NCBI RefSeq assembly: GCF_963853765.1
Contig: NC_088858.1
Location: forward strand, 7,378,001-7,442,000
Direction of reading: 5' to 3'
Length of the DNA: 64,000 nt
Source: Magallana gigas
Taxonomy: Eukaryota
Each line of letters opens with the position of its first letter. Position 1 is the first letter of the stretch. The position numbers were made by a program. Below, in pieces: positions 52,201 to 64,000 of the stretch.

Positions 52201-55200
52201 TCACACGGGTAATATACACCACACGTATGAGATAAAATTACACATACTCCCATAAAGATATAATATATTTTATAATATTATATTCGTAACAATTAGGGCA
52301 CAATTGCAAGTGACACAGAAATAAAATACTTATTTTAAACGGACACATTTGTAATCCTTATTAATAGAATAGAGTCTGAAGCTGAGTGTGATTCTATATA
52401 ATTAGATAAATGCGGAAGATTAATACTTGTATCGGCACGTGATTGGTGATAGATTAATTAAACAAATCCACACGGAACTTCAGAAAAATAAAAACAACAA
52501 ATATCATCATCATCGACGCCATGGTAGAAATGGTTATAATAACCTGTTTGATGCTTATTTATCTACCAGGTATGTTATTTTTTCTCTCTTATAATACCGA
52601 TTCATGATGTTTTATCGTACAGATGGAAGATTAACCTTTGTGTAATTTTCTACCCGCTGTATGCAAATTAGGTTGACCCGAAGCATATGAGCGGACAATC
52701 TTACATAATACATGTACACTATTTTAGGACTTACCGTCAAACAGAAATCTAGCCGATATTTTGCTGTAATTGTTTAACTGCCATAGAACCAGCAAGTAAT
52801 CAAATCTGAATAAGAAGATAAATAAACTGATAGTCTTGATTTTATATTACTTTATTAAGTACCACTTTATGTTGCGTTGCTTGTTTTTAAACTCTCAAAA
52901 TTATGAAGACCGAACATTTTCAAAAGAAATAAGAAAAGAAAACTTAGCAGATAAAACATTAAGGCATAAAAAAGGTATTAAAAATGTCACAGAATATTAA
53001 AAGCATCTTTCTAAAAATAAAAGTTTCAACTTAGGACCAAACTATCTTATGCTTTATTATATACCATGTAACCCTCTATGCGCAAAATTCCAACCGGACC
53101 ATTTATATTTCCAGTTTCTCTCGTGTTTTCGAGAATTGGGATAAATATTCATGTATTTGTTGAAAATTTAGGCCAGTTTTAACGTGTTTTTTGGTAAAAT
53201 AATGCAAGAAAATTAATTAATTAAAAAATGAAATTTGCAATTATTTTCTGTAGTTTGTTTAAATGCTTTGATATTAAACAACAAGGGTAAACGATACACC
53301 CGCAATGTACAATATATAGACATTTAAAAAATGAAATCGTTGTTGATTCATCCGGGACATGAACGAAGCAACATTACAGAAAAAACCATGACGGCGTTAG
53401 CGGGTTATGTATGTATTTCTACAATGAACGCTACCTTAAAACCCGCATGAATCATCAAAGAAAGCATTTTATTGTTTATATTAATATCTTTCTGTAAACG
53501 AATTGAAAGTAAGTACAAGTAACTAAATGATTCTTAATGTACAGCATTTTGTTTGATAAAAGAAACAGCCAAATCGTCTTATATGGGAATATGAGTCTGA
53601 CATCATCATGATTATATCTGAAGATTTCGACCAATTAATAAACTGCTTCGAACTGGATCGTTTCGATTTAAATCCTGTCAGTTTCGATAGAGCTGTGAAG
53701 TACAATCAATTTACGTAAGAAATAGAGGGAGTCAGACAATTTGGAGATATATATGTATGTTAAATCTTACATTTTTGTGATATTTTCAACACCATTAGTT
53801 TTAAAGCTCAATATGTTATGTTTTAAAACATTTATCAGAAATAACATACACTTTTACTAACATAATTTAAATAGTTTCAATCTCAAAGGACCCCGCTTTA
53901 ATAATGGAAAATACTATAAAAGCATTTCAGAGGTTTTTGCTGTGACTTTCACCTCTGTCTTAGAAACTTTTAGGTTGTAATACAACTGTTAGTCAAGCTC
54001 ATTGTCTTTACCAACAGCATTTTTTAGTTTAATATTAAGCTAATGCGATTTAATTTGTGGTCTAAGCTGGATTTTCAAGAGGTCTGCAATGACCTTAATT
54101 AACATTTGAACTTGAAATTTGGTTTAAGGTCGCTGCACAACCTTTACCCCAAAGCTCTGTTTATGTTACGTATGAGCCAGATAGGGTAATGGGGAGAGTA
54201 AATATGCTCTGAATTTTTTTTTTGCGTGGTTTGATATGACCTTGACCTAGAAAATTCATTTGAGATCACCGCATTTTCTTTGACCAAAGGCACTCTGTGG
54301 GTGAAGTGTGAGCCAGATTGGACCAAAGAGAGAGAATATGTAATTCGGACATGGATTTTTTTTTTTCGATAATTATGCCATGATCTTAACTTTAGACCTA
54401 GAAAATGAGTTAGAAGACGCCGCACACCCTTTATCCAAAGCCCCCATGTAGGTGAAGTATGAGTTATATTTTGCCAAGGGGAGAGAAGATGTGATCTTGG
54501 ACGGATTGACGGACGGACTGATTGATTACTATAGGGCGCCCGAAGAGCGGGGCCCTAAAACATGTTTTTTGAGGTATGTACTGTTTCTAAAAACATTTTT
54601 TTTTTAATTTTCAGCATTTCAGAACAAGACAAAAACTTTTGTGAGCTTTGTCAATTTTGTCTCATCCATACCGCTAATATCGATTCATGATTGAACACAA
54701 GATACATGACTGTACAGAAAACAACGTAGAATTATTGAAAAATATTATTATAAAGTATTTTGTATAAAGGTCAATGAAACACGCGCAACACACGGAAATA
54801 TATCTAGTAAAGCTTCTTTTCCGTTTTAATTACTAAAGCCTTATAAATGAATAACTAATCTAAAAAAAGGAAATAGAATACGGAAATATAATCGGTATTG
54901 AACTATAAACTTATCACTCGTAGAAATAATTATTTCAATTCACATTAAGGTCAGACGACACGTTCCTCGATAATCTTTTTTGTATCTCCTCGTAATGAAG
55001 AGTTCCAATGAAAATATTAATTTTATAATTACTTTAAAAATGATCACAATTTACTTGAATTTGGTTATATGTGTACATGGTCGAGTGGTAAGAACCGTGG
55101 CCGCTCACAGCCAGAAGGGTATAGGTTCTAGAGGTCGTGAGTTCAAAGCCCCGCCCCGGCGGAGATATAATTCTAATTTAGTGAGTTTCTCTGTGCTGTA

Positions 55201-63125: not shown

Positions 63126-64000
63126 AATTTGAATGGTTAATCTTTTCTGAGTTGTCTTTCATTTACCATTCCAACAGGTAAGCCATCGACTCCTATAATT
63201 GAGTCGAACCTGGAGACTCCTCGATACGGTAACACGTTGACTTTGACTTGTAGAAGTTATTCCACGTCGCAGCCAGCATATTACCGACACCAGTTAACCT
63301 GGTCCTATACATGGTACAGAAATGATTCCATCGTCTACCGAGGACACACGTACGCTTTTACAGTCAGTCGTGACGTCATGTATGACGAAATTATGTGTCA
63401 AGCAAAAGAAGTCATCTTGTCAAAAAACAGCAGTACATATAAGATTGGGTATCTGGAGAAATGTAAGTTACTAAATTGAAGGCACAATGCCTCTGTGCAT
63501 AGTTAGGGTCATGTATCTTGATCATCGGTAATTAAGTGACGCAATGAAAATAAATATAACAAGAAAAGTGAATACAGCAGTCTATTACTAATATTATCGG
63601 TCTAGTTTAAAGTGAGTATTATTATATTTCTAGCAAGACCGGCAGAACCAAAAATCGTTGGTATTTCACAAACGAATGCTAAATACTTCAGAATCACATG
63701 GAGTTCCCCATTTGATGGAGGATATCCTCAGTATTTTCTTATATATCAACAAAACATTACGGTATGGGACGTTGTTGCTAATATTAGCCAATCAAACGCC
63801 ACTATCCAATCAGCTGATGTTCCATCTGGCCCAAAAGGCGTGTACAGCGTTGCAATCATGTCTTGCAACATGCTTGGGTGTACCATGCCAGTCAAACTGG
63901 ACAGAGGTTTGTTTATCCTATGTTACATGTAGAAAATAATTACCATATAACGTTTAATTTCAGAAAGGATCCGAAAGAATATATTTGGGAGAGTTCGGTC

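What the first reader, a model, noticed from the sequence alone, without database searches (positions are those of the whole stretch)
52521..63906. Receptor built by duplication of a three-exon FN3-V-Ig cassette
Eight phase-1 exons assemble into one open frame of ~664 aa: SP, FN3-like (55982), V (57025), Ig (57429), FN3-like (61639), V (62254), Ig (63178), FN3 (63634). The two cassettes are paralogous (NVSLxDxxxYxGG; CQAKEV) but strongly diverged, especially in the V and FN3-like parts. Usual Ig/FN3 receptors (nephrin, DSCAM, Robo, L1) place Ig arrays before FN3 arrays; an interleaved order starting with FN3 is unusual. Symmetric phases permit cassette skipping. Inference: a rapidly evolving bivalve immune or allorecognition receptor family.
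Basis: partly seen in the sequence, partly recalled or inferred. Interest (0 to 1): 0.65.

Follow-up and report, generated by a model that had tools for sequence, protein, structure and literature searches.

The report
Oyster membrane protein with duplicated FN3-like/V/Ig cassette
This is a real oyster gene, already listed as uncharacterized in Crassostrea gigas, for a cell-surface protein whose outer part is an internal duplication of three domains; the build is unusual and its function is untested.

Summary
Eight phase-1 exons (52521-63906, + strand) line up residue for residue with residues 1-666 of the public 719-aa C. gigas protein XP_011445362.1 (LOC105340837, "uncharacterized").

A 718-aa ORF on a 2994-base transcript-sized contig, plus partial or full orthologs in Ostrea, Saccostrea and C. 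virginica, carry both cassettes in one protein. So this is one gene.

- Two of the eight donors are GC, not GT (exons 4 and 6).
- The exon-5 donor used by orthologs lies 6 bases further on, at 61887.
- The stalk, transmembrane helix and 18-residue tail lie beyond the window.

Predicted folds support the domain calls. Exon 5 looks FN3-like, though only weakly. Exon 6 is a V-type domain without the usual disulfide. Exons 4 and 7 are Ig, and exon 8 is FN3.

The two cassettes are sister clades in a tree, which fits an internal duplication older than the oyster genera sampled.

The cassette also heads a larger oyster family. Some paralogs have ITIM/ITSM-like or ITAM-like tails; this gene's orthologs have none. 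An immune or allorecognition role is therefore not shown.

The window's exons were never joined; each was searched on its own.

The parts
52521..52569 (+). Exon 1: start codon and a hydrophobic, signal-peptide-like 16 residues plus 1 base. Donor CAG|gtatgt.
   Evidence: 15 of 16 residues are identical to P0001 residues 1-16.
55982..56239 (+). Exon 2: first FN3-like domain (85 in-frame residues, no Cys, 1 N-glycosylation sequon).
   Evidence: 84 of 85 residues identical to P0001 18-102. No Pfam family at E<=1. Matches leave-out cassette profile positions 1-62 at E 6.6e-4. hhalign against the e5/family profile gives probability 86.6%. The fold was not modelled here.
57025..57315 (+). Exon 3: first V-like domain (96 residues, no Cys, 3 sequons).
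   Evidence: Leave-out profile positions 81-162, E 6.5e-19. Paralogous to e6 at E 5e-10. 85 of 96 residues identical to P0001, the lowest of all domain exons (e2-e8).
57429..57710 (+). Exon 4: first Ig domain (93 residues, Cys23 and Cys73). It ends at a GC donor (ACT|gcaagt).
   Evidence: Pfam Ig_2 at 36.5 bits against a cut-off of 27. Profile positions 180-269, E 1.9e-28. The junction residue Cys (T + GC) is present in P0001, P0003, P0005, P0006 and P0007.
61639..61887 (+). Exon 5: second FN3-like domain. The donor matching the orthologs is AAC|gttagt after 61887.
   Evidence: The orthologs read GPNKPD (P0001), TNKPD (P0003) and LNKPD (P0007) across this junction, which needs the 61887 donor. 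The AlphaFold model has pLDDT 89.3. The best Foldseek matches are FN3-type domains, but none reaches E<=1e-3.
62254..62565 (+). Exon 6: second V-like domain (103 residues, no Cys, 5 sequons). It ends at a GC donor (CAG|gcatgt). Codon 62298-62300 is CGG (Arg) where at least 90% of 33 aligned relatives have Trp.
   Evidence: AlphaFold pLDDT 88.7 with nine strands. Foldseek gives at least 500 PDB matches at E<=1e-3; the top ones are TCR, antibody and nanobody V domains with TMq 0.73-0.81. Pfam V-set scores only 14.8 bits against a cut-off of 26. The Trp is marked nearly invariant in alignment A3.
63178..63462 (+). Exon 7: second Ig domain (94 residues, Cys24 and Cys73). Donor AAT|gtaagt, at the position homologous to the GC donor of e4.
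   Evidence: Paralogous to e4 at E 7e-15. Pfam Ig_2 at 19.6 bits, below the cut-off. Profile positions 179-269, E 1.9e-28.
63634..63906 (+). Exon 8: membrane-proximal FN3 domain (90 residues, SCN..GC cysteine pair, 3 sequons). Donor GAG|gtttgt. The gene continues beyond the window.
   Evidence: Pfam fn3 scores only 13.9 bits against a cut-off of 25. A profile of 8 relatives hits titin FN3 arrays (E 3.8e-15, summed over several weak domains), sidekick-2 FN3 (2.2e-4) and neogenin FN3 (1.3e-3). P0001 residues 667-719 have no match in the window (best E 4.1).

Best explanation
What it is. The region holds the first eight exons of one protein-coding gene. It is the counterpart of C. gigas LOC105340837, from that species or a very close relative. 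The product is a type I single-pass membrane glycoprotein.

Domain order, one domain per exon: signal peptide, [FN3-like, disulfide-less V-type Ig, C2/I-type Ig], the same three domains again, then a classical FN3. Outside the window, known from orthologs only, come a short stalk, one transmembrane helix and a 15-18-residue basic tail without tyrosine signalling motifs.

Origin. The repeated three-exon unit arose by internal tandem duplication before Crassostrea, Saccostrea and Ostrea split.

Family. The same cassette sits once at the N-terminus of a larger oyster family. Those paralogs add further Ig domains, the same FN3, a transmembrane helix and often long tails with tyrosine motifs.

Inferred function, not shown. 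It is a surface recognition or adhesion molecule whose V-like domains carry the binding sites. Having no signalling tail, it would act by adhesion, as a co-receptor, or as a non-signalling partner of its motif-bearing paralogs.

Splicing. It needs two GC-AG introns, after exons 4 and 6.
For: Gene model.
- The exons are colinear with P0001 residues 1-666, with one junction residue between blocks.
- P0003 is a 718-aa ORF on a 2994-base contig. The gene spans more than 11 kb, so that contig must be spliced RNA, and it joins both cassettes.
- Ostrea edulis P0005 (717 aa, 45% identity, 98% coverage) has both cassettes. The partial models P0006 and P0007 each span the cassette boundary.

Cassette homology. 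A profile was built from 92 domain sequences after removing 46 orthogroup-like proteins. It places e2/e3/e4 and e5/e6/e7 on the same positions, 1-62/81-162/180-269 and 1-66/81-176/179-269.

Tree of 32 complete cassettes. Cassette 1 is a clade (SH-aLRT 100), cassette 2 is a clade (99), and the two are sisters (89).

Folds.

Membrane anchor and tail. Searches show the TM helix and short tail in orthologs.

Other features. The window exon peptides carry 16 NxS/T sequons. No relic of the paralogs' middle Ig exons lies in the introns.
Against: - No transcript from this genome was seen. The junctions are inferred from a RefSeq prediction and from a transcript-like contig of another species.
- Two of eight donors are GC, which is rare in animals (recalled, about 1% of introns). 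I could not check whether other oysters share them.
- The window's V2 has Arg at a core Trp position.
- The FN3-like call for e5 rests on Foldseek matches no better than E 7e-3 (0 matches at E<=1e-3). The atlas scores are below the tool's own confidence level. Exon 2 was not modelled, and its profile match is weak (7.9 bits).
- The sister grouping of the two cassettes has SH-aLRT 89 from a quick search, with no bootstrap.
- Nothing here bears on ligand, expression or function.
Confidence: 0.78

Rival explanations
1. One reading: a rapidly evolving immune or allorecognition receptor whose V domains are under diversifying selection.
For: - Differences between the window and P0001 cluster in the V exons: 20/199 against 13/444, odds ratio 3.7, p 3.5e-4.
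- Identity to Ostrea is lowest in the FN3-like and V domains (30-43%) and highest in the Ig domains (54-62%).
- Paralogs form an expanded family. Saccostrea has many named copies, and some share a contig.
- Of 34 family proteins scanned, 30 have a TM-like stretch. Seven carry L[VI]YIDV, 6 carry TEYTFV, and 7 carry an ITAM-like pattern.
- P0025 ends in a motif nearly identical to the ITAM printed for the hemocyte receptor CgIgR.
Against: - This gene's own orthologs have no such motifs (0 of 3).
- No paralog lies in the other 52 kb of the window.
- It behaves as one orthogroup across four genera.
- Excess change in the V domains also fits relaxed constraint.
- The motif hits are regular-expression matches and were not tested against shuffled tails.
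- There are no expression or polymorphism data.
Confidence: 0.25
2. The copy in this genome is a decaying or null allele. Two splice donors have changed from GT to GC and a core Trp to Arg, so little or no full-length protein is made.
For: - GC donors follow e4 and e6.
- Codon 62298-62300 is CGG where at least 90% of 33 relatives have Trp.
- 5% of residues differ from P0001 (33 of 643).
Against: - All eight exons are open with no frameshift or stop.
- The e4 GC donor has the strong GCAAGT context typical of working GC donors (recalled).
- The RefSeq model and P0003 use the same junction residues.
- The old C. gigas model K1PQM8 truncates e4 and skips e6. That is what a GT-only gene predictor would do if C. 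gigas had the same GC donors, but this is an inference.
Confidence: 0.1
3. Two adjacent genes, one per cassette, wrongly merged.
For: A 3.9-kb intron separates the cassettes, and exon 4 lacks a GT donor.
Against: - No start codon or signal-peptide exon is evident before e5, and no FN3, TM or other relic exon lies in 57711-61638.
- The 2994-base contig ORF P0003 and the models from Ostrea, Saccostrea and C. virginica all read through the boundary, with a conserved junction Cys.
Confidence: 0.03

Closest known systems
C. gigas LOC105340837, XP_011445362.1 (P0001), 'uncharacterized protein, isoform X1'
   Same: Same gene. All eight exons are colinear. Identity per domain exon (e2-e8) is 89-99%; e1 is 15/16.
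   Different: 33 of 643 compared residues differ, mostly in V1, V2 and the second FN3-like domain. The window lacks the last 53 residues.
Oyster paralogs that RefSeq names automatically 'CEACAM5-like', 'immunoglobulin superfamily member 10-like' or 'hemicentin-1-like' (Saccostrea cucullata, S. echinata)
   Same: The same FN3-like/V/Ig cassette at the N-terminus (full-length profile matches). The same membrane-proximal FN3 with the SCN..GC pair. One domain per exon is suggested by single-domain ORF fragments that end at the same boundaries.
   Different: The paralogs have one cassette, then further Ig domains (Ig_3/I-set), and often long tails with ITIM/ITSM-like or ITAM-like patterns. This gene has two cassettes, no middle Ig domains and a short tail.
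CgIgR, an oyster hemocyte receptor with an ITAM (iScience 2020, PMC6994640; passages read)
   Same: According to the paper it is a C. gigas IgSF type I receptor. Its printed 19-residue ITAM closely matches the C-terminus of family member P0025, and the start of the motif matches P0033. These are 2 of 145 stored proteins matching a loose pattern, so CgIgR probably belongs to a paralogous branch of this family. This is an inference from the motif alone.
   Different: The paper describes five Ig domains and an ITAM that recruits Syk. This gene has no ITAM. The CgIgR sequence itself was not compared: no accession appears in the main text and the supplement was not opened.
Vertebrate V-C2 adhesion and immune receptors (CD226, CRTAM, CEACAM, CD2 type)
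   Same: A V-type domain followed by a C2-type Ig on a type I membrane protein. The V profile weakly hits CD226 D1 (E 1e-3), CRTAM (2.4e-3) and CEACAM6 (3.7e-3). CD2 and CEACAM N-domains also lack the B-F disulfide (recalled).
   Different: In those proteins the V domain is N-terminal; here an FN3-like domain precedes each V. The sequence matches are marginal and give no evidence of orthology. The 'CEACAM5-like' name is automatic.
Receptors that start with, or interleave, FN3-type domains (IL-3R-alpha-type N-terminal domains, LIFR; the muscle proteins titin and twitchin)
   Same: The e5 model's best PDB matches include IL-9R-alpha, the IL-3 receptor complex, and the IL-21R, IL-22R1 and IL-12R chains. 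Starting with FN3, or interleaving FN3 with Ig, is therefore not unprecedented (architectures recalled).
   Different: There is no cytokine-receptor WSXWS or paired-Cys signature. The repeat unit FN3-like/V/C2 is not one I know from those families (recalled, not tested).
Hydractinia Alr family (PNAS 2022, PMC9546547; search listing and start of abstract only)
   Same: An invertebrate IgSF family whose domains depart from the canonical conserved residues, in a recognition setting.
   Different: A different phylum and no sequence link was tested. This is an analogy only.

Membership tests
Ig V-set (PF07686) | V-type sandwich with the extra C' and C'' strands | tested here: met
   The e6 AlphaFold model has pLDDT 88.7 and nine strands. 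Foldseek top hits are TCR, VH and nanobody V domains at E about 1e-6 and TMq 0.73-0.81, with at least 500 hits at E<=1e-3. e3 is covered only through its homology to e6.
Ig V-set (PF07686) | Score at or above Pfam's gathering cut-off | tested here: not met
   e6 scores 14.8 bits and P0001 20.7 bits, against a cut-off of 26. e3 has no match.
Ig V-set (PF07686) | Canonical B-strand Cys to F-strand Cys disulfide | tested here: not met
   e3 and e6 contain no Cys. The family consensus is ..SW.. on strand B and DAGYYxGG on strand F.
Ig C2/I-type (PF13895 Ig_2) | Pfam cut-off reached and a Cys pair about 50 residues apart | tested here: met
   e4 scores 36.5 bits against 27 and has Cys23/Cys73. e7 alone scores 19.6 bits, below the cut-off, but is homologous to e4 (E 7e-15) and has Cys24/Cys73.
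Fibronectin type III (PF00041), exon 8 | Sequence-level match to FN3 | tested here: inconclusive
   Pfam scores 13.9 bits against a cut-off of 25. Only 2 of 8 aligned relatives match fn3 at E<=0.1, the best at 1.4e-4. The profile's PDB hits down to E about 0.06 are all FN3 domains: titin, sidekick-2, neogenin, Cdon-binding protein, myomesin.
Fibronectin type III (PF00041), exons 2 and 5 | Sequence or fold match to FN3 | tested here: inconclusive
   No Pfam family at E<=1. The e5 model is confident (pLDDT 89.3), and its best matches are FN3-type domains at TMq 0.55-0.72, but the best E is 7e-3 and none reaches 1e-3. Atlas leads name fn3/Ig-like clusters at 0.85-0.94, below the tool's confidence level. 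e2 was not modelled. 'FN3-like fold' is as far as the evidence goes.
Oyster FN3-like/V/Ig cassette family (unnamed) | Colinear match of three consecutive exons to a cassette profile built without this orthogroup | tested here: met
   Both triplets match. 126 library representatives have E<=1e-3 to P0001.
ITIM/ITSM/ITAM immune receptors | Tyrosine motif in the cytoplasmic tail | tested here: not met
   The tail exon is outside the window. In 3 of 3 full-length orthologs the tail is 15-18 residues and has no such pattern.
Paired activating receptors (short tail plus a charged TM residue for an adaptor) | Lys, Arg, Asp or Glu inside the TM helix | tested here: not met
   The TM stretches of P0001, P0003 and P0005 printed contain no charged residue.
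Allorecognition locus | High allelic polymorphism linked to a fusion or rejection phenotype | not testable with these tools
   No population data or phenotype are available. There is only the excess of differences in the V exons against one public sequence.

The most novel reading that the evidence does not exclude
The FN3-like/V/Ig cassette marks an oyster-specific paired-receptor system. It would include inhibitory members (VVYAAV/LVYIDV/TEYTFV tails), activating members (CgIgR-type ITAM) and this conserved double-cassette, tail-less member acting as a shared co-receptor or decoy. In this reading the disulfide-less V domains are the diversifying ligand-binding sites, and the GC donors after exons 4 and 6 tune exon or cassette skipping.
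Probability: 0.15. Interest if true: 0.7.

Novelty: new variant of a known kind. Interest (0 to 1): 0.4.

Why it matters
The gene is already in RefSeq, but only as "uncharacterized". I found no paper naming it or its orthologs (main text of the held library only).

What this work adds is the anatomy:
- a domain that Pfam does not recognise and that folds like FN3;
- a V-type domain without the canonical disulfide;
- a three-exon unit that heads a lineage-expanded oyster receptor family and is duplicated inside this one gene.

If the tentative link to CgIgR and the ITIM/ITSM-like tails of paralogs hold up, the cassette would define a family of hemocyte-type receptors in an animal with no adaptive immunity. 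This gene would then be its odd, conserved, non-signalling member.

On present evidence it is a tidy structural annotation, not a functional discovery.

Tried and rejected
- BLAST between e2 and e5 was not significant (E 0.46-0.49). Only profiles link them.
- Pfam on single exons put only e4 above the cut-off. e2, e3 and e5 gave nothing.
- phmmer of e4 against PDB sequences gave 0 hits at E<=0.01.
- The atlas feature searches for e5 and e2 gave leads only (best 0.89 and 0.94, recognition below the tool's level). The atlas held no structure for either.
- The first alignment for the e5 fold (A1) put the paralogs' first domain against cassette 1, not e5. I dropped it and used A2, which has no two-cassette proteins.
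- I looked for relic exons of the paralogs' middle Ig domains or of a second FN3/TM in the introns. There were none. The one weak minus-strand hit (E 0.015) was taken as chance.
- Rfam on 52000-64000 found nothing.
- Pfam on ORFs in introns or on the opposite strand (54144-54551, 58041-58232, 56026-56469) found nothing.
The taxa of unnamed representatives and the other RefSeq isoform therefore stayed unseen.
- Complex prediction and the third fold search were not used, since no binding claim is made.
- Paper searches by gene and protein identifiers gave 0 papers. Two topical searches found no description of this architecture.
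Full report
SCOPE. Each exon was translated and searched alone. Full-length comparisons rest on public proteins that the searches returned, chiefly P0001. The only genome collection open is bacterial and archaeal, so no other oyster DNA could be read.

1. OBSERVATION.
- Stop-to-stop ORFs on the + strand between 52000 and 64000 include seven that hold the proposed exons 2-8 (36 ORFs of at least 60 aa in all).
- I read the sequence and computed boundaries. The exons are e1 52521-52569, e2 55982-56239, e3 57025-57315, e4 57429-57710, e5 61639-61881, e6 62254-62565, e7 63178-63462 and e8 63634-63906.
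- All 7 acceptors are AG behind a pyrimidine-rich stretch. All 8 exons end after the first base of a codon.
- The internal exons are 258, 291, 282, 243, 312, 285 and 273 nt long, all multiples of three.
- The quoted motifs are present.
To stay in frame, e4 and e6 must use GC donors (ACT|gcaagt, CAG|gcatgt). So 6 of 8 donors are GT and 2 are GC. The e4 GC donor sits at the position homologous to the perfect GT donor of e7 (AAT|gtaagt).

2. ONE GENE, ALREADY ANNOTATED.
- Exon 3 alone, searched against longer proteins, found four proteins. One is XP_011445362.1, 'uncharacterized protein LOC105340837 isoform X1' of Crassostrea gigas (P0001, 719 aa).
- Each window exon aligns to a contiguous block of P0001: residues 1-16, 18-102, 104-199, 201-293, 295-376, 378-480, 482-575 and 577-666. 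One residue, the split codon, lies between blocks. tblastn gives the same picture.
- Across the e5/e6 junction P0001 reads GPNKPD. In the window an Asn-to-Ser difference creates the extra in-phase GT at 61882. Either site keeps the frame, and I cannot tell which is used.
- Residues 667-719 of P0001 are the stalk, a TM helix at 681-701 and an 18-residue tail. They have no match in the window (best E 4.1), so the gene runs off the 3' end.
- P0003 is a 718-aa ORF on a contig of only 2994 bases. The gene spans more than 11 kb, so that contig is spliced RNA from a related oyster (81% identity), and it contains both cassettes.
- Ostrea edulis LOC125652294 (P0005, 717 aa, 45% identity, 98% coverage) has the whole architecture. 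The partial models from Saccostrea echinata (P0006) and C. virginica (P0007) each cross the cassette boundary.
- The junction residue between e4 and e5, a Cys made of T + GC, is present in all five. So is Cys73 of e5, the only Cys within the e5 exon peptide. A disulfide between the two is possible but untested.
- The two-gene reading is therefore contradicted.

3. THE CASSETTE AND ITS DUPLICATION.
- Within the window, e3~e6 (E 5e-10, 27% identity) and e4~e7 (E 7e-15, 36%) are clear paralogs. e2~e5 is not, by BLAST (E 0.46-0.49). No further copy lies in bases 1-52000.
- A search of 1.84 billion representatives with P0001 gave 126 proteins at E<=1e-3, 45 at E<=1e-10 and 13 at E<=1e-30. Many long ones match residues ~297-573, that is, cassette 2.
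- I built a cassette profile after removing 46 proteins at least 45% identical to the orthogroup, leaving 92 domain sequences. It places e5, e6 and e7 on positions 1-66, 81-176 and 179-269 (E 5.8e-12, 1.7e-20, 1.9e-28). It places e2, e3 and e4 on 1-62, 81-162 and 180-269 (E 6.6e-4, 6.5e-19, 1.9e-28; seven targets searched).
- hhalign of an e2 orthogroup profile (5 sequences) against the e5/family alignment gives probability 86.6%, E 4.5e-6, over 68 columns. So e2 and e5 are homologous, with e2 much more diverged.
- I made a maximum-likelihood tree of 32 complete cassettes (quick search, SH-aLRT only). Cassettes with incomplete profile cover were left out: the second of P0008, the partial ones of P0006 and P0007, P0011, P0021 and others. 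The four cassette-1 rows form a clade (100), the four cassette-2 rows form a clade (99), and the two are sisters (89, below the 95 star).
- This fits an internal tandem duplication of the three exons in the ancestor of these oyster genera, followed by long divergence (stem lengths 1.05 and 0.92).
- No relic of the paralogs' middle Ig exons, or of a second FN3/TM, lies in the introns.
- Other family members show repeats of their own (P0085 two full cassettes; P0008, P0011, P0074 and P0058 partial repeats). Duplication of this unit is therefore recurrent.

4. WHAT THE DOMAINS ARE.
- Ig (e4, e7). Pfam Ig_2 scores 36.5 bits for e4 (cut-off 27) and 19.6 bits for e7. Both have a Cys pair.
- V (e3, e6), sequence evidence.
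  - Pfam V-set is below the cut-off.
  - A 33-sequence profile hits CD226 D1, CRTAM, contactin and CEACAM6 only at E 8e-4 to 4e-3.
- V (e3, e6), fold evidence.
  - The AlphaFold model of e6 (alignment A3, pLDDT 88.7, nine strands) matches TCR, antibody and nanobody V domains.
  - Those matches are at E about 1e-6 and TMq 0.73-0.81, with at least 500 hits at E<=1e-3.
- V (e3, e6), conclusion.
  - The fold is V-type.
  - The canonical disulfide is absent: neither exon has a Cys. The family consensus has Trp on strand B and DAGYYxGG on strand F.
- FN3-like (e5, e2).
  - There is no Pfam match at E<=1.
  - The e5 model (alignment A2, 16 sequences, pLDDT 89.3) finds no PDB match at E<=1e-3.
  - The list down to E 0.1 is led by FN3-type domains: IL-9R-alpha (7e-3), sDscam FNIII1/3, PTPRF fn3-6 (TMq 0.72), Tencon, fibcon and fibronectin III-6. 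Alongside are bacterial FN3-like and carbohydrate-binding sandwiches. No Ig V or C domains appear.
  - Atlas leads point the same way but stay below the tool's confidence level.
  - 'FN3-like fold' is fair for e5. For e2 it is inferred from homology; I had no third structure job.
- FN3 (e8). Pfam is below the cut-off, but a profile of eight relatives hits titin, sidekick-2, neogenin and Cdon-binding-protein FN3 domains.
- The seven exon peptides carry 16 NxS/T sequons, eight of them in the two V domains.

5. THE WIDER FAMILY.
- A search with the first 300 residues of paralog P0015 returned 19 proteins at E<=1e-5. All are from Saccostrea cucullata or S. echinata.
- RefSeq names them automatically 'CEACAM5-like', 'immunoglobulin superfamily member 10-like', 'hemicentin-1-like' or 'uncharacterized'. 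Several sit on the same contig.
- They carry one cassette, further Ig_3/I-set domains, the same FN3 and a TM helix.
- I scanned 34 family proteins; 30 have a TM-like stretch. Seven carry L[VI]YIDV, six carry TEYTFV (ITIM/ITSM-like), and seven carry an ITAM-like pattern. The three full-length orthologs of the window's gene have tails of 18, 18 and 15 residues with none, and no charged residue in the TM helix. These are pattern matches and were not tested against shuffled tails.
- The paper on the oyster hemocyte receptor CgIgR (PMC6994640, passages read) prints its ITAM. P0025 ends in an almost identical stretch, and P0033 matches the first part of the motif. These are 2 of 145 stored proteins matching a loose pattern, and they form one clade in the tree (99).
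- CgIgR therefore probably belongs to a paralogous branch. This is inferred from the motif alone. Its sequence was not compared and the supplement was not opened.

6. RATE OF CHANGE.
- Against P0001 the window differs at 1/85, 11/96, 2/93, 6/82, 9/103, 1/94 and 3/90 residues in e2-e8.
- The V exons hold 20/199 differences against 13/444 elsewhere (odds ratio 3.7, Fisher p 3.5e-4).
- Against Ostrea the identities are 30, 41, 62, 40, 43, 54 and 47% for e2-e8.
- The V and FN3-like domains therefore change fastest. Whether this is selection or laxity cannot be told without codon data.
- One window-specific change puts Arg (CGG, 62298-62300) at a Trp conserved in at least 90% of 33 relatives. Together with the two GC donors, this keeps a decaying-allele reading alive at low probability.

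7. MECHANISM.
- Shown: the gene structure, domain order, duplication, and conservation across genera.
- Inferred from orthologs: membrane anchoring and the lack of signalling motifs.
- Inferred from the biology of V-C2 receptors in general: it acts in surface recognition or adhesion, with the V-like domains as binding sites, and signals, if at all, through a partner.
Each V domain is capped by an FN3-like domain, which I do not know from the classical Ig-then-FN3 adhesion receptors. However, N-terminal or interleaved FN3 does occur in cytokine receptors and muscle proteins (recalled; compare the hits).
- Phase-1 symmetry is the norm for such exons and says nothing about skipping.

8. LITERATURE.
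- Searches for LOC105340837, XP_011445362, K1PQM8 and the three ortholog LOC numbers found 0 papers. This covers the main text of the held library only; supplements of papers that were not opened, and the closed bioRxiv supplements, may hold the identifiers.
- Two topical searches found no description of this architecture.
- A 2025 review (PMC11999971, passages read) lists CgIgIT2 for C. gigas in its summary table and also mentions CgICP and CgLRRIG-1 in the passages read.
- The Hydractinia Alr paper (PMC9546547) was seen only as a listing and the start of its abstract.

VERDICT. This is a known, uncharacterized gene with an unusual and now better-defined architecture. Its function is open.

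Noticed in passing
window 23753-24913, minus strand: An uninterrupted 386-aa ORF encodes a complete PKA type II regulatory subunit-like protein (RIIa domain at E 1.8e-9, two cNMP-binding domains at E 1.8e-46). A single-exon form of a gene that usually has many introns (recalled) suggests a retrocopy.
   Followed up: partly
window 57711-57716 and 62566-62571: Two GC-AG introns occur in one gene (after e4 and e6). The e4 one lies at the position homologous to the GT donor of e7. The old C. gigas model K1PQM8 (P0004) truncates e4 and skips e6, as a GT-only predictor would if C. gigas shares these donors.
   Followed up: partly
window 61882-61889: Two in-phase donors lie 6 bases apart at the end of exon 5. 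The upstream GT exists only because the window has Ser (AGT) where C. gigas has Asn. The two sites would give products differing by two residues.
   Followed up: partly
window 62298-62300: Codon CGG (Arg) in V2, where at least 90% of 33 aligned relatives, including all four orthologs, have Trp on strand B.
   Followed up: partly
window 57710/61639-61640 and e5 residue 73: The split-codon Cys at the e4/e5 junction and the only Cys inside e5 are both conserved in all five orthologous sequences. Cassette 1 has no equivalent. They may form a disulfide within the second FN3-like domain.
   Followed up: no
window 61446-61514 and 63061-63122: Long dinucleotide repeats sit close upstream of acceptors: (AG)34 about 125 bases before exon 5, and (TA)31 about 55 bases before exon 7.
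   Followed up: no
P0008, P0085, P0011, P0074, P0058 (public proteins, no window coordinates): Other family members carry their own repeats of the cassette or of its V-Ig part. P0008 looks like a duplication of a whole ectodomain. Duplication of this unit seems recurrent in the family.
   Followed up: partly
window 2473-2940, minus strand: A 155-aa ORF with a conserved-looking stretch but no Pfam match at E<=0.01. It may be an exon of a neighbouring gene.
   Followed up: partly
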